A DNA stretch of 13,840 nt, taken from positions 1 through 13,840 of the forward strand of contig CAYYDP010000033.1 of assembly GCA_964470645.1 (NCBI GenBank). The letters run 5' to 3'. The DNA comes from an uncultured Gammaproteobacteria bacterium. Lineage in GTDB: Bacteria > Patescibacteriota > Patescibacteriia > CAYYDP01. Positions 1,660 to 13,840 of the stretch are shown piece by piece. Both the position numbers and the translations under genes were made by a program. Below the pieces are notes generated by a model. That model was not told the origin of the DNA and did not search any database. It saw nothing but the letters and a program-made list of their open reading frames with translations. Every line of letters starts with the position of its first letter. The first letter of the stretch is position 1.

Positions 1660-3024
1660 TTATCTCCACTTTGAAAACACCGCTCCCGCTCCCAACCCCT
1701 CCTCAATCCTCAAAAGCTGATTGTACTTAGCGACGCGATCAGTTCGAGAAAGCGAACCCGTTTTAATCTGTCCACACCCCAACCCAACCACAAAATCCGC
1801 GATGGTCGTGTCTTCGGTTTCCCCTGACCGGTGAGAAATGATCGATGTGTATTTCGCATCGTTTGCCATCTTGATGCAATCAATCGTTTCGGTCACTGTC
1901 CCAATTTGATTGAGCTTCACCAAAATCGAATTGCAAATCTTCTGATCAATTCCCATTTTCAAACGCTTCGGATTTGTCACAAATAAATCATCACCAACGA
2001 GCTGAGTTTTATCACCCAACGTTTCAGTCAATAATCGATACCCCTCCCAATCATCCTCCGAGAGTCCATCTTCAATGGAAACAATTGGGTACTTTTCGCA
2101 CCACGACGCGTACACACCGACCAACTCTTCTGATGATAACACTTTTCCCTCAATCTCAAGATGATACTTCCCGTCCTTATAAAGCTCCGTTGCGGCAACA
2201 TCAAGCGCCAACGAAATATCCTTTCCCGGTTCATATCCAGCCGATCGAATCGCCTCCAAAATCACCTCAACAGCGGCTTCGTTCGCACCGAGTGCTGGAG
2301 CATACCCACCCTCATCCCCAACCGACGTTGAAAACCCCTTCTTCGCGAGAATTTTTTTGAGTGCATGAAATGTTTCTGCTCCATACCGCAAGGCTTCCCG
2401 AAAACTTGCAGCCCCGTGCGGAACAATCATAAACTCCTGGAAATCTGTTGATCCAGCCGCGTGCTTGCCGCCATTCAACACGTTCATCAAAGGCACGGGC
2501 ATGATGTACCTTCCCTGACTTTCTCCCTCCCTTAAGGTAAGGGAGGGTTGGGGAGAGTTATGCTCTGCTGAGCCCATAACCCCCTCAGTCCCCCTTACCT
2601 TAAGGGGGAGGTATAAATCACGAAAATATTCATACAACGTTTTCTTCTCACAAAGAGCCGCTGCCTTGCTAAACGCCATGGAAACCCCAAGAAGCGCGTT
2701 TGCGCCCAACGCTCCCTTGTTCTCAGTACCATCAAGCGCAATAAGCGCGGCGTCAAGATCTCGTTGATCAAACGATTTTCTTGTCATGGATTGAGCAATG
2801 GTAGTACGCACATTCTCAACCGCCTTCAAAACCCCTTTCCCACCATAGCGTTTCGAATCGCCATCTCGAAGTTCAACCGCTTCATGACTCCCCGTGGAAG
2901 CCCCCGAAGGGACCGCTGCCCTCCCAAATGCGCCGTTTTCAAGCTCGACTTCGACTTCGACCGTTGGATTTCCGCGAGAATCAAGAATTTCTCTTGCGTG
3001 TATAGATTTGATTGTATGTTGCAT
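1660..3024 (-). CDS. eno: Enolase (phosphopyruvate hydratase) carrying an in-frame insertion of about 29 aa
   Basis: N-terminal [19 protein letters not shown] and SGASTG, central [12 protein letters not shown] and [11 protein letters not shown]-terminal [18 protein letters not shown] and [22 protein letters not shown]. The protein is 454 aa against about 425-432 aa for typical enolases. The extra residues map to the palindromic element at 2508-2612. Confidence 0.95.
2508..2612. mobile_element. Short palindromic MITE-like element (RPE-like), copy 1, inserted in-frame within eno
   Basis: Left hairpin 2525-2547 (ccctccctta-agg-taagggaggg, 10-bp perfect stem). Right hairpin 2589-2609 (tccccctta-cct-taaggggga, 9-bp perfect stem). 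The two ends are near reverse complements of each other. The core shares gagttatgc and cataacccc with the second copy at 13549-13698. The hairpin-to-hairpin span is 87 nt, or 29 codons, and is read through without a stop in the eno frame. Confidence 0.55.
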
Positions 3025-5791: not shown

Positions 5792-5842
5792 GAGTCCAAC
5801 CGGCAATTTGGGCGGAAATTGCCGGTTGGAGGTTATCAACAG
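5792..5842 (+). repeat. Structured direct repeat R1: 15-bp perfect hairpin followed by ggaggttatcaacag; attC-like ends
   Basis: tccaaccggcaattt-gggcgg-aaattgccggttgga, then ggttatcaacag. The 27-mer aaattgccggttggaggttatcaacag (5816-5842) recurs exactly at 6773-6799. The 5' word gagtccaaccggc recurs at 6727-6739 as gagtctaaccggc. Confidence 0.6.
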
Positions 5843-5913: not shown

Positions 5914-5942
5914 TTGACCATGGTCACCCGCTTATGTATACT
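5914..5942 (+). promoter_or_regulatory. Sigma-70-type promoter TTGACC-17-TATACT for the PIN toxin operon, overlapped by the 12-bp palindrome tgaccatggtca (5915-5926), a likely autoregulatory operator
   Basis: The -35 is at 5914-5919 and the -10 at 5937-5942, with a 17-nt spacer, about 45 nt upstream of the 5987 ATG. Confidence 0.45.
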
Positions 5943-5986
5943 TTCGTTAGAGCAATCATGATTGTATCTCAAGTTTCTACATCATT

Positions 5987-6181
5987 ATGAGTCAGGAAAT
6001 ATACAACCAGCAAAAACTTCTTACCATTACCCACGTTGTCAGACCTTGGCAGACCGCAACGCGTGCTGATGGGTCAGTTTCAGAGTCGCTACTTGAACAA
6101 TACGATCGCATTCGCGAGCGTGCGGATGTTGCCATGCGGGATACCGATCCGGTTAAGCTCATCCGCGAACAGAGAGATTAA
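5987..6181 (+). CDS. Small protein immediately upstream of the PIN toxin gene; putative antitoxin of unclassified fold
   Basis: 64 aa. Its stop at 6179-6181 lies 2 nt before the ATG at 6184 of the PIN gene. No recognisable RHH, AbrB or Phd signature, so the call rests on position and size only. Confidence 0.35.
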   Translation: MSQEIYNQQKLLTITHVVRPWQTATRADGSVSESLLEQYDRIRERADVAMRDTDPVKLIREQRD

Positions 6182-6216
6182 ATATGTAATTCTATGCTGC
6201 TTACTGTGACAGTTCT

Positions 6217-6597
6217 GTGTGGATCGCCGCGTTCATGAAAGAATCTCGCGGGGAACAAGCGGACAAACTCATTCGCGAATGTCTGGATGGGACTCATCAG
6301 CTCATTACTCCAATCATCATTCCGCTCGAAGTACTATCCGCGATGCAGCGACAGAGCCACGATATATCTCTTGCTGAAGAATCATATAACCTCATCATGT
6401 CATTGCCAAACAATGAACTCGTTGAATTGGATTTTGTAACTTCCCGCCTTGTAAAAGCAACCATTGCCGAAACAGGACTGAAAGCCAACGACGCATTTAT
6501 TCTCACGGTCTGCCGCGAATCACATTCGACGCTCGCAACGTTTGATGATGAATTATTGAATCGGGCGAAAGAAACCGGTATCGCCACGATTATGTGA
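6217..6597 (+). CDS. PIN-domain (VapC-like) toxin; the annotatable ORF starts at GTG 6217 but the conserved N-terminal Asp strand lies upstream behind a TAA at codon 2
   Basis: PIN motifs are present: ...IPLEVLSAM (Glu), GLKANDAFILTVC (Asp) and LATFDDEL (T.D.DF). Upstream in the same frame the sequence reads ATG(6184) TAA(6187) then FYAAYCDSSVWIAAF, a typical PIN beta-1 strand with the motif-1 Asp (gac) at 6208-6210. Confidence 0.7.
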   Translation: MWIAAFMKESRGEQADKLIRECLDGTHQLITPIIIPLEVLSAMQRQSHDISLAEESYNLIMSLPNNELVELDFVTSRLVKATIAETGLKANDAFILTVCRESHSTLATFDDELLNRAKETGIATIM

Positions 6598-6655
6598 AGG
6601 TGGGCAACACAACGTATTTTAATCCAAACAACTCGCAAGTCATTGAAATAGTTCG

Positions 6656-6690
6656 AAACCGCTCACTGATGGGCGGTTTTGTTTATTCAT
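6656..6690 (+). terminator. Rho-independent terminator after the PIN toxin gene
   Basis: aaaccgc-tcactgatgg-gcggttt followed by tgtttattc. Confidence 0.5.
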
Positions 6691-6726: not shown

Positions 6727-6799
6727 GAGTCTAACCGGCGCAAAACCCAAATCGTTGGGCTGTTTGCTGCCCAAATTGCCGGTTGGAGGTTATCAACAG
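6727..6799 (+). repeat. Structured direct repeat R2: a longer-loop variant of R1 with the same 3' 27-mer
   Basis: gagtctaaccggc...(inner cccaaatcgttggg)...aaattgccggttggaggttatcaacag. The stem ucuaaccggc/gccgguugga has one G-U wobble. The GGAGG lies 12 nt before ATG 6802. Confidence 0.6.
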
Positions 6800-6801
6800 A
6801 G

Positions 6802-7560
6802 ATGGTAAGATTATTTCAGAAACTGCCTATGTCGGATGACCAAACCACACAAGAGCAAACGAACAGCGTTGAGCAAGCATCGATATCACCCATTGCGGAT
6901 CCAACCACTCCGCAGGTCCCACCTCCAGTGGACGAATCGAACTCAACAATCGAGCCCCAATCTCAAACACAAGAACCGGCAGCTCCGACTGTTGAACCAA
7001 GCGAGCCGAAAGAAGAAGCGCTAGCAACGCCGCCAATCGAACAAGCACCTGCTCCGGAACAAGGAAGGGCGCAAGATGTTGCGCCCCTACAGACTGAACC
7101 CAACGTCATTATCAAAGAAGTGATTCGTGAAGTTCCGGTTGAAACAATCGTTGAGCGAATCGTAGAAAAACCCGTCGAAGTCGTTAAAGAAATCGTAAAA
7201 GAGGTCCCCGTGGATCGGGTCGTAGAAAGAATTGTTGAAAAACCGGTCGAGAAAATTATTGAAAAAGAAGTGGTTCGCGAAGTGCCAGTGTTCGATCACA
7301 GACAACACGCGGAAGAAGTAAAAAAGAAAGCGAGGATGTTGGTCGTTCCCGCAACTGCGCAACGACAGGCAAAACGCGACGTGAAGCTTGCAAAAGTTCT
7401 GGAGGAAGCGAAACGCAAAGGTAGAATTGGGAATAATGACGTGCAAATCCTCGTTGCGGTATCCGATCGCACGGCGCGAAATTACTTGGCAGAGCTTGTG
7501 AAACAAGGAAAGCTCAAAACTGTTCACCGCGGCCGCTGGGCGCATTATGTTCCTGTTTGA
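6802..7560 (+). CDS. Protein of unknown function: acidic Pro/Gln/Glu-rich N-terminus, tandem 11-residue VE(R/K)IVEKPVE-type repeats, C-terminal winged-helix HTH
   Basis: The C-terminal NNDVQILVAVSDRTARNYLAELVKQGKLKTVHRGRWAHYVPV fits the wHTH pattern (..S.RTA.RdL.eLv..G.l...G.gR...Y). The ORF is open from 6679, but 6679-6801 overlap the terminator and R2, so the ATG at 6802 preceded by GGAGG is the more likely start. An alternative ATG lies at 6829. Confidence 0.55.
   Translation: MVRLFQKLPMSDDQTTQEQTNSVEQASISPIADPTTPQVPPPVDESNSTIEPQSQTQEPAAPTVEPSEPKEEALATPPIEQAPAPEQGRAQDVAPLQTEPNVIIKEVIREVPVETIVERIVEKPVEVVKEIVKEVPVDRVVERIVEKPVEKIIEKEVVREVPVFDHRQHAEEVKKKARMLVVPATAQRQAKRDVKLAKVLEEAKRKGRIGNNDVQILVAVSDRTARNYLAELVKQGKLKTVHRGRWAHYVPV
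7111..7293 (+). repeat. In-frame tandem coding repeats of about 33 nt encoding EVPVETIVERIVEKPVEVVKEIVKEVPVDRVVERIVEKPVEKIIEKEVVREVPV
   Basis: The periodicity is visible in both DNA and protein. The spurious reverse-strand ORF 7087..7545 is an artefact of this low-complexity region. Confidence 0.6.
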
Positions 7561-7577: not shown

Positions 7578-7904
7578 TTACACCTTCATCTCAATCCCGT
7601 GCTTCTTGATTTCCAACGTGAGCGAGGTATCATCTTTGAAATCTTTCGGATTAAAACCAAGGGGTTCGACCCTGGGCTCGGTATCCACCGTACGTTTGAG
7701 CCAGAGATATTGAAGCGCTGAAAACGCGTCTTTAAACTTTGGTGAGATAATGCAAACGTCCACGTCGCTCAACCGATTTTGCTTTCCTTTTGCGTAGGAA
7801 CCAAAAAGAATGACCCTTTGAATTGGCAATCTATCAGCTTTAAGCACGCTCACATACTCACGAATCGCGGTTTTCACTTTTTTGGGAATTGTTCTTCGAG
7901 CCAT
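7578..7904 (-). CDS. Minimal nucleotidyltransferase (MNT, Pol-beta superfamily), the HEPN-partner (MntA-like) protein
   Basis: Hallmark motif ILFGSYAKGKQNRLSDVDVCII (GS...G......SD.D). 108 aa. Its start overlaps the HEPN ORF by 31 nt. Confidence 0.85.
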   Translation of the reverse strand: MARRTIPKKVKTAIREYVSVLKADRLPIQRVILFGSYAKGKQNRLSDVDVCIISPKFKDAFSALQYLWLKRTVDTEPRVEPLGFNPKDFKDDTSLTLEIKKHGIEMKV

Positions 7905-8276
7905 AGACGTAATTGTTCAGAAATACGCAGATACTTTTTTGTATACGAAGGTGTACACAGTTTATAGAACTGATACTTTGTATCTCCATATCGACCTGCG
8001 ATATTAAAGGTCGTGATGAGGCGCAACTCCTCTTCCTGACTCTTCGTTGGCTTCAGTCCCGCTTGCTTTGCCAAATACGAAAGATCATGAATGTATGAAG
8101 CCTGGTTTACGAGTCTTAATCATGAACAACGTCTTGATCATCTTTTCAAGCGTTAAATGACAGAAAAAGAGACACGAGTCGTAATGCTTGAGCCTAAAAA
8201 GACTTTGAGCCGTTTTCCAGTTCCGTTCAGCTGATTCTTTCCAGTAATCGATTTGTTTTTGAATCGAGATAGACAT
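7874..8276 (-). pseudogene. HEPN-domain (HepT-like) toxin gene split into two ORFs (8276..8085 and 8074..7874) by a +1 or +4 frameshift near 8084-8093
   Basis: The N-terminal half (AERNWKTAQSLFRLKHYDSCLFFCHLTLEKMIKTLFMIKTRKPGFIHS*) and the other frame (..SYIHDLSYLAKQAGLKPT...NIAGRYGDTKYQFY...) together reconstruct the HEPN consensus ..QAaEKalKAll...g..p.tHDL..L. On the reverse strand the H codon (8093-8091) and D codon (8086-8084) are separated by the 4 nt tcat. Confidence 0.6.
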
Positions 8277-11590: not shown

Positions 11591-12862
11591 TTATCTCAAT
11601 TGGATCTTCATCACCTTCCCAACGCTTCCATCCACAAAATACAATTCGGATCCATCAGGAGAAAGCGATAGTTGTTCAACCGGGATCCTTCTCCCATCTT
11701 CCGTAACAGGCTCAGCAACAAGCTGGGTTGATCCGGTTTCCAGATTTACCTCATAGATACTCGCTTCCCGCGGGTTAAAAAGCTCAGGATACAATCCCGT
11801 CCCGGGAGGAAGACTGTCCTGAACGGAACAATACGCCTTTGTGCCGTCCGGGTTCATAGCGCACGAATCAATCGAGGTGGATAGCCCCAATGGGGTATTG
11901 TTGAGACCAATCGAGTCCCCTCGAGCATCAACAATCCACAACGTCGGGTTGTAATTATTTTCCGGCGTGCTCACGCTATACAACAGCCTCTGTCCATCGG
12001 GCGTCCACTCGCCCTTAAACCCAATACCCTGCACTACCATCGATTTGAAATTTTCATCTTGTTGTCCGATAAAAATAATCTCTTCTGATGAAACGCCTGC
12101 CGATTTCCTGTACAACCCCACCACGCTTCCATCCGGAGAATACGTAGGCTGAACGCGATCCGCTTGATCTCCAATCGGCTCAATGGCACGCGCCTCGGAA
12201 CCATCCGGAGTACCCATCACCAAGAAACTGCGCTCGGGATCTGGGGAAACAAAATTGAACACGACATTGTCCGAATCCCCTTGAAACACGAAATCTTGTC
12301 CTCCCCGCGGAAGACTGACGCGTTCATTCGTTACAAAATCAACCATTACACCCGTTCCATCAGGAAAACTCAAAAGAGCTCGATCTCCTGATTTGTCCCA
12401 AACGACCCGCTCTGCTGAAGGAAACCGGTCGCGAATAAGTTCAACCCGCTCACCGCCCGATGTCATCCGGTACAATACACCGGTATTAGGCTCGTAGTAC
12501 GAAAACCCAGAAGTTGAGTTTCCCGTGTATGACCTGACCGAATCTTTGGTTACCGGAGATACAAGTGTTTTACCACCATTTGCAACCGTATCAACCGGAA
12601 TCTCACCGGTATCCCCGCCAAAAACACCGTTCACATTGGGCAAGAACCCCCTACCTCCACCCGTCTGTCGGTTCGCGTTAAACCCAGCACCGGTTCCAGG
12701 AAGACCGCCAATAGCCCCTGGGGTGTTCATGTTTTCGTTCATCTGGGGCTGAATCTCCACTGCGGGTTTCAAAAAATACACAACCACCAGCGCCATTGCG
12801 CCGAGAAAAAATAGGATCAAAACGATAAAAATGATTCGATTTTTGGTGAAGAGCATAGTCAA
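11591..12862 (-). CDS. Membrane-anchored PD40/TolB-like beta-propeller protein
   Basis: N-terminal TM helix, a Gly-rich linker, then repeated SPDG/PDG blades (YSPDGSVVGLY, WTPDGQRLLYS, MNPDGTKAYCS, LSPDGSELYFV). The ORF begins at TTG 12862. The ATG at 12856 (MLFTKNRIIF...) is the more likely start. Confidence 0.7.
   Translation of the reverse strand: MTMLFTKNRIIFIVLILFFLGAMALVVVYFLKPAVEIQPQMNENMNTPGAIGGLPGTGAGFNANRQTGGGRGFLPNVNGVFGGDTGEIPVDTVANGGKTLVSPVTKDSVRSYTGNSTSGFSYYEPNTGVLYRMTSGGERVELIRDRFPSAERVVWDKSGDRALLSFPDGTGVMVDFVTNERVSLPRGGQDFVFQGDSDNVVFNFVSPDPERSFLVMGTPDGSEARAIEPIGDQADRVQPTYSPDGSVVGLYRKSAGVSSEEIIFIGQQDENFKSMVVQGIGFKGEWTPDGQRLLYSVSTPENNYNPTLWIVDARGDSIGLNNTPLGLSTSIDSCAMNPDGTKAYCSVQDSLPPGTGLYPELFNPREASIYEVNLETGSTQLVAEPVTEDGRRIPVEQLSLSPDGSELYFVDGSVGKVMKIQLR
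12831..12858. repeat. 28-bp direct repeat DR-a (atgattcgatttttggtgaagagcatag), which encodes the TolB-like N-terminus on the reverse strand and abuts the RelE stop
   Basis: It matches 13457-13484 at 26/28 positions. A third, partial copy at 13729-13748 matches 18/20. Confidence 0.6.
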
Positions 12863-13113
12863 CGATATACACGATGATCGCCAATATCAACAAACTCGGC
12901 TGTTCCTGATACGAATGTAAACAACACCCGATGACTGTGTGTGACAGAGAACGACCAAAATCCAGAGAGCCTTCCGCCCAGTTTGTGCGTCGAGAGTTTT
13001 GGATCAAACGGATCAAGCCTAAAGAGATTCATACGTTCTTCAAACTCTTGTTGGATTTCGATCGGGAGCTTACCCAACGACCGAATGAAGCGACTAGAAT
13101 ACGCAATCTCCAT
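12859..13113 (-). CDS. Type II toxin of the RelE/ParE superfamily
   Basis: 84 aa with ...HKLGGRLSGFWSFSVTHSHRVLFTFVS..AEFVDIGDHRVY, the ParE/RelE C-terminal signature (kL.G.l.g.we.r....yRi.Y......i.il.igHR..vY). Its stop overlaps the start region of the TolB-like gene. Confidence 0.8.
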   Translation of the reverse strand: MEIAYSSRFIRSLGKLPIEIQQEFEERMNLFRLDPFDPKLSTHKLGGRLSGFWSFSVTHSHRVLFTFVSGTAEFVDIGDHRVYR

Positions 13114-13116
13114 ACA

Positions 13117-13413
13117 TTACTCACTTTTTGCATTGACTACTTGATCAAGTTGTTTTGCCTCATCACGAAGTTCTAAAAATCCCTTGTTGCCCAACGTTCG
13201 AAGCAACCCCGCATCTCGCTCACGCTCAAACTCAGCGACAGCTTCCAACGCCCGTTCTTCCGCATCCGACTCATACGTCACGGTATGAACTGGACGAACA
13301 ACAAGTGTATCACCAAACATAATGGCGACGACGTCATCGGATCGAAACGCTTCCGCCCACTCGCGGGGGAGCGTCAATGTTCGCTCTTTGATGGTGAGAG
13401 GAAGATAGGTCAT
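13117..13413 (-). CDS. Antitoxin with an N-terminal AbrB/MazE-type (SpoVT-AbrB swapped-hairpin) domain
   Basis: LTLPREWAEAFRSDDVVAIMFGDTLVVRPV matches the .tiPke.re.lgl.eGd.v.i...g..li..P. pattern. An acidic C-terminal tail follows. The stop lies 3 nt upstream of the RelE start. Confidence 0.7.
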   Translation of the reverse strand: MTYLPLTIKERTLTLPREWAEAFRSDDVVAIMFGDTLVVRPVHTVTYESDAEERALEAVAEFERERDAGLLRTLGNKGFLELRDEAKQLDQVVNAKSE

Positions 13414-13450: not shown

Positions 13451-13456
13451 AAAAAT

Positions 13457-13484
13457 ATGATTCGGTTTTTGGTGAAGAGTATAG
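13457..13484. repeat. 28-bp direct repeat DR-b (atgattcggtttttggtgaagagtatag), a relic of the TolB-like 5' end with ATG changed to ATA
   Basis: See 12831-12858. It sits 6 nt upstream of the -35 of the RelE/AbrB operon promoter. Confidence 0.6.
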
Positions 13485-13548: not shown

Positions 13549-13698
13549 CTTCCGTCCTTTTTCCTCCTCTTAAGGTAAGAGGAGGCTAGGAGGAGTTATG
13601 CCTTCAACGCACTCAATGTTACTTTATCGATCATTAACATTTGCCGTTCCACACTTCATAACCCCCCTTTCATCCCCTCTTATCTTAAGAGGGGAAAG
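13549..13698. mobile_element. Short palindromic MITE-like element, copy 2 (longer core), intergenic
   Basis: Left hairpin 13563-13585 (cctcctctta-agg-taagaggagg). Right hairpin 13673-13695 (tcccctctta-tct-taagagggga). The core shares gagttatgc and cataacccc with copy 1. The left flank cttccgtcctttttcct matches cttccctgactttct of copy 1. Confidence 0.5.
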
Positions 13699-13840
13699 TA
13701 CCTCAACAATTTTCTCTTTATTTCCCATTTCGATTGTTGGTGAAGAACGCAGTACTCAAATGATACACAAACATTAATACGCTAGTTTATATGTTCCAGG
13801 ATTTGCTGTATCAGGTATTAAACATGTATCATTTAACGAA

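What the first reader, a model, noticed from the sequence alone, without database searches (positions are those of the whole stretch)
6184..6219. PIN toxin apparently inactivated: ATG immediately followed by TAA, with the catalytic-Asp beta-strand stranded upstream of the only usable start
In frame with the PIN ORF (GTG 6217), the upstream sequence reads ATG(6184) TAA(6187) TTC TAT GCT GCT TAC TGT GAC AGT TCT GTG TGG..., that is M-stop-FYAAYCDSSVWIAAF. 'YCDSSVWIAAF' is a textbook PIN beta-1 strand and carries the first of the four catalytic acidic residues. The ancestral gene most likely started at ATG 6184, two nt after the stop of the upstream small ORF. Codon 2 is now a stop. Any protein initiated at GTG 6217 would lack the motif-1 Asp and be catalytically dead. 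This looks like toxin decay, or, less probably, a sequencing error or programmed readthrough or reinitiation.
Basis: partly seen in the sequence, partly recalled or inferred. Interest (0 to 1): 0.5.

Follow-up and report, generated by a model that had tools for sequence, protein, structure and literature searches.

The report
Frameshifted VapC toxin gene, antitoxin intact

Summary
The features described are real. ATG 6184 and TAA 6187 are in frame with the PIN ORF, and the first catalytic Asp (GAC 6208-6210) lies upstream of GTG 6217. The proposed lesion is wrong. In eight homologous loci the toxin starts MLLTIDSSVW, and that ATG aligns with window ATG 6194, which is in another frame. The window reads ATG CTG CTT ACT GT-GAC, so one base is missing from codon 5 (about 6207/6208). 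Restoring it gives a 134-aa protein, the same length as the close homologues. ATGTAA lies in a variable 12-nt spacer and is a chance hexamer. From ATG 6194 only a 14-aa peptide can be made. The ORFs from GTG 6217 or ATG 6235 lack strand beta-1 and Asp6, so the toxin is very probably dead, while the 64-aa antitoxin is intact. No alternative start, slippery site or homopolymer could rescue it. I favour a real mutation over an assembly error (about 0.75). The large housekeeping genes are intact, a second toxin (HEPN) on the contig is also frameshifted beside an intact partner, and an orthologue elsewhere has an independent TGG-to-TAG stop at codon 10. Toxin-first erosion of chromosomal TA modules is well documented. 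Interest is low.

The parts
5914..5942 (+). Promoter-like site of the module (TTGACC, 17 nt, TATACT). A perfect 12-nt palindrome TGACCATGGTCA (5915-5926) overlaps the -35 hexamer and is a candidate operator for autoregulation.
   Evidence: 10 of 12 consensus matches; palindrome read directly. A promoter-like TTGACA-17-TATAGT sits at the equivalent place in L002, and an inverted repeat overlaps TTGACG in L005. Function is inferred.
5987..6181 (+). Intact 64-aa putative antitoxin gene (stop TAA 6179-6181).
   Evidence: It is conserved upstream of the toxin in L001-L008 and L003 (32-57% identity; invariant V18, R19, L35, L36, Y39, P55, V56, L58, R60, R63). No Pfam or NCBIfam match. The antitoxin role is inferred from position and co-conservation.
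6182..6193 (+). 12-nt intergenic spacer ATATGTAATTCT, which contains the ATG(6184)-TAA(6187) pair. It is non-coding.
   Evidence: It aligns with the homologues' spacer, which varies from a 4-nt ATGA overlap (L003) to 3 nt (L004-L008) and 17 nt (L001, L002, with AGAGGGA).
6194..6597 (+). VapC-type PIN toxin pseudogene. The ancestral start is ATG 6194. One base is missing in codon 5 (between about 6205 and 6208, most simply a C between 6207 and 6208). The remaining 129 codons are intact to TGA 6595-6597.
   Evidence: Restoring one base gives MLLTVDSSVWIAAF..., 134 aa, the same length as P0002 and P0003. tblastx matches to every homologue begin exactly at 6208, while blastn matches begin at 6193.
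6194..6238 (+). The only ORF translatable from the ancestral start: MLLTVTVLCGSPRS*. Its TGA (6236-6238) overlaps ATG 6235 as ATGA.
6208..6210 (+). GAC, the first catalytic Asp (Asp6 of the repaired protein). It is now out of frame with the start codon.
   Evidence: Asp in 64 of 66 family members; the Asp directly follows strand beta-1.
6217..6597 (+). Residual ORFs in the PIN frame: from GTG 6217 (126 aa, starts at residue 9) and from ATG 6235 (120 aa, starts at residue 15, as annotated in the database, P0001). Both lack beta-1 and Asp6.
6654..6681 (+). Terminator-like hairpin followed by a T-run, downstream of the toxin stop.
   Evidence: 12-pair stem, 6 G-C pairs.
5795..5842 (+). Left flanking element: a perfect 15-bp hairpin (5795-5809 / 5816-5830), plus the 27-nt sequence AAATTGCCGGTTGGAGGTTATCAACAG (5816-5842) that is repeated exactly on the right flank.
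   Evidence: DNA fold z = -5.3.
6730..6799 (+). Right flanking element: the same stem base with a 42-nt loop, and the identical 27-nt repeat (6773-6799). The repeat carries GGAGG 13 nt upstream of ATG 6802 of the next gene.
   Evidence: The 22-mer core has 2 matches in the window against 0 expected.

Best explanation
Window 5914-6690 is a self-contained type II toxin-antitoxin module of the VapBC kind. It has a promoter with an overlapping palindrome, a 64-aa antitoxin gene, a 12-nt spacer, a 134-codon PIN (VapC-like) toxin gene and a terminator-like hairpin. The toxin gene has lost one base in codon 5. Ribosomes starting at the ancestral ATG 6194 therefore read M-L-L-T-V, leave the PIN frame and stop after 14 residues. 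The PIN frame upstream of Asp6 is closed by TAA 6187 and has no start codon. The only PIN-frame products (from GTG 6217 or ATG 6235) lack the central beta-1 strand and the Mg-binding Asp6. They should be unable to cleave RNA and probably cannot fold properly. The antitoxin is intact. This is the usual first step of TA erosion: a toxin-inactivating mutation is tolerated or favoured, whereas losing the antitoxin first would be lethal. Shown: the frameshift relative to eight homologous loci, the conservation of Asp6, the fold, and the absence of rescue signals. Inferred: loss of activity, and that the deletion is a real mutation rather than an assembly error.
For: Homologues P0002 and P0003 (134 aa, 76% identity in the local alignment) begin MLLTIDSSVWIAAF. 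DNA alignments of eight loci place their ATG on window ATG 6194 and show a single-base gap in codon 5 only in the window. The repaired gene is 134 aa. In alignments of 12 and 66 family members, D6, E46, D100 and D118 are invariant or nearly so (D6 in 64 of 66), and 31 of 66 have exactly 5 residues before the Asp. An AlphaFold model of the orthologue (pLDDT 95.4) has beta-1 at residues 2-5, then Asp6, then helix alpha-1 at 7-14. The best PDB matches are VapC toxins with TM 0.7-0.8. No ATG, GTG, TTG, CTG, ATT, ATC or ATA lies in the PIN frame between 6190 and 6207. There is no X XXY YYZ heptamer and no homopolymer of 4 or more in 6185-6220. For a real mutation: M29 peptidase, enolase, RecG, the DsbA-like and the SPFH genes match their profiles end to end. 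The HEPN toxin on the same contig is also frameshifted while its MNT partner is intact. If two indels fell at random in coding DNA, both would hit toxin genes with probability about 0.009. Orthologue L003 has an independent TGG-to-TAG stop at codon 10 with an intact antitoxin. pN 0.20 against pS 0.72 versus the homologues shows long purifying selection, so the lesion is recent. Literature: toxin-only pseudogenes far outnumber antitoxin-only ones (185 against 8), and 'toxin inactivation precedes antitoxin loss' (PMC13617665).
Against: No reads and no independent assembly of this locus could be obtained, so a consensus indel error cannot be excluded. The rest of the toxin ORF shows no second lesion, which fits either a very recent mutation or an artefact. 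The frameshift count rests on only two events. Loss of activity of the truncated product is inferred from other VapC proteins and was not measured. The antitoxin has no recognised family, and its function is inferred from context only.
Confidence: 0.75

Rival explanations
1. Assembly or sequencing artefact. The real genome has an intact toxin gene (ACT GTN GAC), and the missing base is a consensus error in this 13.8-kb metagenome-type contig.
For: The lesion is a single base. The other 129 codons are intact and conserved (pN much lower than pS). No reads or second assembly were available. The site lies at the centre of a quasi-palindrome (ACTGT-GACAGT; adding C gives the perfect palindrome ACTGTCGACAGT), and such contexts can trouble polymerases and assemblers.
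Against: There is no homopolymer at the site. About 9 kb of housekeeping genes show no frameshift. The only other frameshift found is also in a toxin gene (HEPN), which random error would give with probability about 0.009. An orthologue in an unrelated sample is independently knocked out by a substitution rather than an indel.
Confidence: 0.17
2. One reading: the gene started at ATG 6184, and codon 2 mutated to TAA.
For: ATG 6184 is in frame with the Asp and lies 2 nt after the antitoxin stop, a typical coupled arrangement.
Against: All eight homologous loci start at the ATG that aligns with 6194. Their N-terminus is M-L-L-T-I-D, which matches the window's other frame (M-L-L-T-V), not M-x-F-Y-A-A-Y-C-D. 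ATGTAA aligns with non-coding spacer. The DNA-level match begins at 6193, not 6184. ATG+stop hexamers occur at chance frequency.
Confidence: 0.01
3. Programmed recoding. A -1 ribosomal frameshift at codon 5, transcriptional slippage, or readthrough of TAA 6187 yields a low level of full-length toxin as a form of regulation.
For: A -1 shift exactly at GTG 6206-6208 would give MLLTV-DSSVW..., identical in length to the orthologues.
Against: There is no slippery heptamer and no homopolymer in 6185-6220. The shift would have to occur at one specific non-slippery codon. None of the eight homologues needs recoding. TAA, TGA and TAG all end genes on this contig. Readthrough of TAA would also need initiation at ATG 6184, which the homologues show is spacer.
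Confidence: 0.02
4. The truncated protein is retained for a purpose. A 120-aa catalytically dead PIN, made from ATG 6235 by termination-reinitiation at the ATGA overlap, acts as an antitoxin-binding decoy or regulator.
For: The 14-codon ORF from ATG 6194 stops at TGA 6236-6238, overlapping ATG 6235. Met15 is conserved in the close homologues. The L003 orthologue's independent lesion, at codon 10, also leaves a 120-aa ORF from Met15.
Against: N-terminal lesions leave the longest callable ORF, so they are the ones most likely to be found in a protein database (ascertainment bias). Without beta-1, and without alpha-1 as well for the ATG 6235 product, the core sheet is incomplete. There is no Shine-Dalgarno sequence before ATG 6235. 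The ATGA overlap is absent from the homologues (ATGG). No pair of lesion-bearing relatives exists to test for selection after the lesion.
Confidence: 0.05

Closest known systems
VapBC type II toxin-antitoxin modules (for example M. tuberculosis VapBC20, VapBC30 and VapBC11, Shigella/F-plasmid VapBC, Rickettsia felis VapBC2, Pyrobaculum PAE0151 and PAE2754)
   Same: A small upstream antitoxin gene is followed closely by a PIN toxin gene of about 134 codons. The Pfam PIN match is above threshold. The D-E-D-D acidic set plus the Ser two residues after the first Asp are conserved (compare Asp4/Ser6/Glu40/Asp99/Asp119 in VapC30, PMC4551927). The predicted fold superposes on these structures at TM 0.7-0.8. 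A palindrome overlaps the promoter.
   Different: Sequence identity to solved VapCs is only 8-23%, with no sequence-level PDB hit. The score is below the NCBIfam VapC equivalog cut-off (30.8 against 80 bits). The antitoxin matches no known VapB-type family. The window's copy is frameshifted.
Eroded chromosomal TA modules (toxin-first decay): ccdO157 in E. coli and TA pseudogenes across Photorhabdus
   Same: The toxin is disabled by a small lesion while the antitoxin ORF stays intact. The module sits as a small islet among core genes. Related copies show independent inactivations. PMC13617665 reports toxin-only pseudogenisation in 185 copies against antitoxin-only in 8 and a two-step decay model. 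PMC2654758 describes ccdO157 as degenerating within E. coli.
   Different: Those cases were established from many complete genomes and with kill/rescue assays. Here there is one contig from an uncultured organism, probably Patescibacteria judging from the HEPN homologues, and no functional test.
Shigella VapC D7A / D7N active-site mutants
   Same: They remove the same first acidic residue that the window's PIN-frame ORFs lack. D7A is used as the inactive toxin control (PMC8923223), and the structures appear among the fold matches (5ecw and 5ed0).
   Different: Those are point substitutions in an otherwise complete fold. Here the whole beta-1 strand is missing as well, and alpha-1 too for the annotated ORF.

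Membership tests
PIN domain (Pfam PF01850) / VapC-type toxin | Sequence match to the PIN profile above the curated threshold | tested here: met
   58.5 bits (cut-off 23.6), profile 2-118 of 120 for window 6190-6594; 47.0 bits, profile 8-118, for the GTG ORF.
PIN domain (Pfam PF01850) / VapC-type toxin | Four conserved acidic active-site residues present in the coding sequence | tested here: met
   In the repaired reading, D6, E46, D100 and D118 are all present. They are invariant in the 12-sequence alignment and present in 64-65 of 66 in the larger one.
PIN domain (Pfam PF01850) / VapC-type toxin | One uninterrupted ORF with a start codon encodes all four acidic residues (a functional gene) | tested here: not met
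   ATG 6194 is out of frame with GAC 6208. The PIN frame has TAA at 6187 and no canonical or near-cognate start before 6217.
PIN domain (Pfam PF01850) / VapC-type toxin | PIN alpha/beta/alpha fold with the N-terminal beta-1 strand carrying the first Asp | tested here: met
   Shown for orthologue P0002: pLDDT 95.4, beta-1 at 2-5, Asp6; the top Foldseek hits are VapC structures. The window's own product was not modelled.
PIN domain (Pfam PF01850) / VapC-type toxin | NCBIfam VapC equivalog score cut-off | tested here: not met
   NF047959: 30.8 bits (window) and 33.2 bits (P0002) against a cut-off of 80. This is a divergent subfamily.
PIN domain (Pfam PF01850) / VapC-type toxin | Mg-dependent ribonuclease activity and growth arrest neutralised by the cognate antitoxin | not testable with these tools
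   Needs a kill/rescue assay and an RNA cleavage assay.
Type II TA module (VapBC architecture) | A small antitoxin gene immediately upstream, co-oriented and co-conserved with the toxin | tested here: met
   The 64-aa ORF 5987-6181 lies 12 nt upstream. The pair, and only the pair, is shared with L001-L008 and L003.
Type II TA module (VapBC architecture) | The antitoxin belongs to a recognised DNA-binding antitoxin family (AbrB/SpoVT, RHH, Phd/YefM, HTH) | tested here: not met
   No Pfam or NCBIfam hit at E <= 1. The homology search found only the protein itself. The single-sequence AlphaFold model has low confidence (pLDDT 66).
Programmed -1 ribosomal frameshift site | Slippery heptamer X XXY YYZ (or a homopolymer for transcriptional slippage) at the point where the frames must switch | tested here: not met
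   None in 6185-6220.
Integron gene cassette (attC-bounded), considered for the flanking hairpin repeats | attC architecture: R'' (RYYYAAC) and R' (GTTRRRY) cores with paired L boxes and a roughly symmetric unpaired central spacer; several cassettes in an array | tested here: inconclusive
   By eye, GTCCAAC and GTCTAAC fit RYYYAAC, and the stem is conserved while the loop varies (6 nt against 42 nt). However, GTTGGAG does not fit GTTRRRY, the spacer geometry is asymmetric, the neighbours are housekeeping genes, no attC model was available, and Rfam found nothing.

The most novel reading that the evidence does not exclude
The N-terminal knock-outs are not neutral decay. This PIN family is repeatedly converted (a frameshift at codon 5 here, a TAG at codon 10 in L003) into a 120-aa catalytically dead protein starting at the conserved Met15. 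In the window it would be made by termination-reinitiation at the ATGA overlap (6235-6238). It would be kept as an antitoxin-binding decoy or co-repressor, that is, a toxin domesticated into a regulator.
Probability: 0.04. Interest if true: 0.5.

Novelty: new member of a known kind. Interest (0 to 1): 0.17.

Why it matters
The main value is for annotation. The database calls a 120-aa 'PIN' protein from ATG 6235, but the locus is better described as a vapC-like pseudogene with an intact antitoxin, and anyone checking the reads should look at 6203-6210, not 6187-6189. Biologically it adds one more example, probably from an uncultured small-genome bacterium, of toxin-first erosion. Two of the three toxins on this contig are disrupted while every partner gene is intact, which fits published models. 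It opens no new question.

Tried and rejected
(1) A sequence search of PDB with the intact orthologue gave only chance hits at E about 0.7. The fold search was needed instead.
(2) Exact-protein look-ups for the GTG ORF, P0001, the antitoxin and the SPFH neighbour found no other assembly. No independent check of the deleted base or of an empty site was possible.
(3) A genome-collection scan for the 22-nt repeat core found nothing. The source genome is not among the species representatives.
(4) The cluster look-up returned no accession or organism name. The lineage (probably Patescibacteria) rests only on the taxonomy of the HEPN homologues.
(5) P0009/L004 first looked like a third damaged copy. 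L004 is identical to L005 up to one point and unrelated afterwards, so it is a breakpoint or a chimera, and I did not count it.
(6) Rfam found no family anywhere in the window.
(7) For the antitoxin, there was no family hit, the homology search found only the protein itself, and the single-sequence model had low confidence. I made no fold claim.
(8) I considered the integron attC reading of the flanking hairpins and left it open. Some features fit, the geometry and context do not, and no attC model was available.
(9) dN/dS: synonymous sites are saturated (pS 0.7-0.9), so only the qualitative statement that pN is much lower than pS is used.
(10) No bracketing repeat was found around the HEPN-MNT module.

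Full report
OBSERVATION. The sequence is as described. The upstream 64-codon ORF ends at TAA 6179-6181. ATG 6184-6186 is followed directly by TAA 6187-6189. In the same frame come TTC TAT GCT GCT TAC TGT, GAC (6208-6210), AGT TCT, GTG (6217), then TGG ATC GCC GCG TTC ATG (6235), down to TGA 6595-6597. Pfam PIN (PF01850) matches profile positions 2-118 of 120 (58.5 bits) when translation is extended to 6190. From GTG 6217 it matches only 8-118 (47.0 bits). The N-terminal motif with the first acidic residue therefore lies upstream of the first start codon in that frame. The ATG-TAA pair itself is not remarkable: the window holds 16 ATG+stop hexamers on both strands, against 24 +/- 5 in shuffles.

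WHAT THE HOMOLOGUES SHOW. A homology search with the extended ORF found the database's own call for this contig (P0001, 120 aa, starting at ATG 6235). It also found two 134-aa proteins, 76% identical in the local alignment, that begin MLLTIDSSVWIAAF. Their DNA (L001, L002) and six further loci from metagenome collections (L003-L008) were aligned to the window. In seven of the eight loci (L001, L002 and L004-L008) the toxin gene reads ATG CTN CTN ACN ATC GAC AGT TCN GTG TGG. L003 reads ATG ATC GTC ACC ATC GAT ACC TCA GTA TAG, with its ATG at the same aligned position. That ATG aligns with window ATG 6194, which is in a different frame from ATG 6184. The window reads ATG CTG CTT ACT GT-GAC AGT TCT GTG TGG. 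It lacks one base in codon 5, most simply ATC to GTC followed by loss of the C between 6207 and 6208. Consistent with this, DNA-level matches to the homologues begin at 6193, while protein-level matches in the PIN frame begin exactly at 6208. Putting one base back gives MLLTVDSSVWIAAFMKES..., 134 aa, the same length as the close homologues.

THE ATG-TAA PAIR. It lies in the 12-nt spacer between the antitoxin stop and ATG 6194. This spacer varies freely among relatives. L003 has a 4-nt ATGA overlap, L004-L008 have 3 nt, and L001 and L002 have 17 nt containing AGAGGGA. The window's ATGTAA aligns with that AGAGGGAT stretch. ATG 6184 was therefore never the start, and TAA 6187 is not a mutated sense codon.

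FAMILY, FOLD AND THE ROLE OF ASP6. An exhaustive HMMER search with the intact orthologue found 206 relatives at E <= 0.001. Nearly all of the 150 listed align from their first few residues. In alignments of 12 and 66 members, D6, E46, D100 and D118 are invariant or nearly so (D6 in 64 of 66). The two exceptions are P0005, a truncated gene call, and P0013, which has Gly. Thirty-one of the 66 have exactly five residues before the Asp. An AlphaFold model of P0002 (pLDDT 95.4, pTM 0.88) puts strand beta-1 at residues 2-5, Asp6 right after it, and helix alpha-1 at 7-14. Foldseek against PDB returns VapC toxins at TM 0.7-0.8: M. tuberculosis 7vwo, VapC20 5wz4/5wzf, 4xgr and 5x3t; Pyrobaculum PAE0151 and PAE2754; Rickettsia VapBC2; and Shigella VapC, including the D7A and D7N mutants. 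In M. tuberculosis VapC30 the equivalent Asp4, with Glu40 and Asp99, binds the catalytic Mg ion, and Ser6 joins the same hydrogen-bond cluster (PMC4551927). This matches the family's D6-x-S8. VapC D7A is used as the inactive toxin control (PMC8923223).

WHAT CAN STILL BE TRANSLATED. From ATG 6194 the ribosome makes MLLTVTVLCGSPRS and stops at TGA 6236-6238. In the PIN frame there is no ATG, GTG, TTG, CTG, ATT, ATC or ATA between TAA 6187 and GAC 6208. A product from GTG 6217 starts at residue 9 and lacks beta-1, Asp6 and the start of alpha-1. The annotated product from ATG 6235 starts at residue 15 and lacks beta-1 and all of alpha-1. Neither start has a recognisable Shine-Dalgarno sequence. 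There is no X XXY YYZ heptamer and no homopolymer of four or more in 6185-6220. A -1 shift would have to occur at one specific non-slippery codon. TAA, TGA and TAG all terminate genes on this contig, and none of the eight homologues needs recoding. I conclude, by inference, that no active toxin is made.

REAL MUTATION OR ARTEFACT? Reads were not available, and no other assembly holds this locus, so this cannot be settled here. Four observations favour a real mutation.
- The large housekeeping genes are full-length against their profiles or solved structures: M29 peptidase 5-406 of 406, enolase, RecG, a DsbA-like protein and an SPFH protein. The assembly is therefore not prone to indels.
- The deletion is not in a homopolymer.
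- The only other frameshift I found is also in a toxin gene. The HEPN gene next to the intact MNT nucleotidyltransferase gene (7578-7904, minus strand) is split into 8276-8085 (profile 2-55 of 117) and 8074-7874 (profile 67-116). The second frame reads IHDLSYLAKQ across the break, where 132-aa homologues read K-P-A-P-Y-I-H-D-L-A-K-L-A without interruption. If two indels fell at random in about 11.1 kb of coding DNA, both would land in the 1.06 kb of toxin genes with probability about 0.009.
- An orthologue from an unrelated sample (L003) is knocked out independently by a substitution. It reads M I V T I D T S V * V A A F M, with the conserved Trp-10 codon TGG changed to TAG, and its antitoxin is intact and overlaps the toxin start.

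The window's gene differs from its homologues mostly at synonymous sites (pN 0.20 against pS 0.72; synonymous sites are saturated, so this is qualitative only). It was therefore under purifying selection for nearly all of its history, and the lesion is recent. One curiosity: restoring a C yields the perfect 12-nt palindrome ACTGTCGACAGT. Its relevance is unknown.

CONTEXT. The module has a promoter-like TTGACC-17-TATACT (5914-5942), with a perfect palindrome TGACCATGGTCA over the -35 hexamer, and a terminator-like hairpin at 6654-6681. Only the two-gene module is shared with the related loci; the flanks differ. In L005 the module lies 134 nt downstream of a tRNA-Gly gene, and 16 nt of that tRNA are duplicated. 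In the window it is bracketed by a hairpin element whose last 27 nt are repeated exactly (5816-5842 and 6773-6799). These features mark a mobile islet inserted among core genes. The HEPN homologues come mostly from Patescibacteria metagenome-assembled genomes, so that is the likely lineage.

COMPARISON WITH WHAT IS KNOWN. By architecture, profile match, conserved residues and fold, this is a VapBC-type module with a divergent toxin subfamily. It scores below the NCBIfam VapC equivalog cut-off, and its antitoxin has no recognised family. It is a new member of a known kind. The event itself, toxin disabled and antitoxin retained, is the well-documented first step of chromosomal TA erosion. [quoted passage not shown] The ccdO157 system is described as degenerating within E. 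coli (PMC2654758). A specialist would not be surprised.

VERDICT. The conclusion that the toxin is inactivated is supported. The proposed ancestral start and lesion are wrong: the cause is a 1-nt deletion in codon 5 after ATG 6194, not a nonsense codon 2 after ATG 6184. The check that would settle the artefact question must target 6203-6210. Interest is low.

Noticed in passing
window 7874-8276 (- strand), with 7578-7904 (- strand): A second TA module, HEPN-MNT, also has a frameshifted toxin. The HEPN gene is split into two ORFs (8276-8085 and 8074-7874), and the frame changes at about 8088-8100. Homologues are uninterrupted 132-aa proteins. The MNT nucleotidyltransferase partner (108 aa) is intact.
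   Followed up: yes
window 12859-13413 (- strand): A third TA-like pair: an 84-aa RelE/YoeB/HigB-like ORF (weak Pfam hits, 13113-12859) preceded by a 98-aa ORF (13413-13117, faint MazE/AbrB-like hit). Both look intact. That makes three TA modules in 13.8 kb, two of them with broken toxins.
   Followed up: partly
window 5795-5842 and 6730-6799: The PIN module is bracketed by a hairpin element whose 3' 27 nt (AAATTGCCGGTTGGAGGTTATCAACAG) are repeated exactly. The left copy has a perfect 15-bp stem with a 6-nt loop. The right copy has the same stem base with a 42-nt loop, and it supplies GGAGG upstream of ATG 6802. It resembles an attC site in outline (RYYYAAC-like cores, conserved stem, variable loop) but is not canonical. 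There was no match in the genome collection. The insertion mechanism is unexplained.
   Followed up: partly
window 12827-12858, 13453-13484 and 13729-13753: The RelE-like module is likewise bracketed by a direct repeat of about 32 nt (91% identical), and there is a shorter third copy. The downstream copy overlaps the start of the PD40-repeat gene (11591-12862, - strand). Two of the three TA modules here therefore carry a duplicated copy of the start region of the next gene, which suggests a shared mode of insertion. No such bracket surrounds HEPN-MNT.
   Followed up: partly
window 2519-2563 (inside enolase, 1660-3024, - strand) and 13557-13601: A 45-nt palindromic repeat (CTTTCTCCCTCCCTTAAGGTAAGGGAGGGTTGGGGAGAGTTATGC) lies in frame inside the enolase gene. 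It encodes part of a 34-aa insert (residues 138-171, ...[18 protein letters not shown]...) between the N- and C-terminal domains, and the best-matching solved enolase has no counterpart for this insert. A 76%-identical copy lies in intergenic DNA, with a related hairpin at 13676-13697. From memory, this resembles the Rickettsia palindromic elements that insert in frame into genes.
   Followed up: partly
L003 919-1323 (JGI 3300022563 contig Ga0212128_10070899): An orthologous PIN gene (51% identical to the repaired window protein) has an in-frame TAG at codon 10 (946-948), replacing the Trp conserved in the close homologues (27 of 66 in the wider family). Its 63-aa antitoxin is intact and overlaps the toxin start as ATGA. 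The gene caller reports only the 120-aa remainder (P0005). This is an independent knock-out of the same toxin N-terminus.
   Followed up: yes
L005 2600-2742; L004 1-160: The same PIN module lies 134 nt downstream of a tRNA-Gly(TCC) gene in L005, and 16 nt of the tRNA (CAAGCTGATGAAAGGG) are duplicated 92 nt further on, like an att-site scar. L004 is 100% identical to L005 from just upstream of the antitoxin gene to toxin codon 45 but has a different upstream flank with a long hairpin. It then breaks off inside the toxin gene, through either rearrangement or assembly chimera.
   Followed up: partly
window 7110-7300 (within ORF 6802-7560, +): The 252-aa protein downstream of the PIN module has no Pfam match. 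It contains a Pro/Glu/Gln-rich region followed by short periodic repeats of the type EVPVETIVERIVEKPVEVVKEIVKEVPVDRVVERIVEKPVEKIIEKEVVREVPV (12-nt and 60-nt DNA periodicity in the repeat finder family D1).
   Followed up: no
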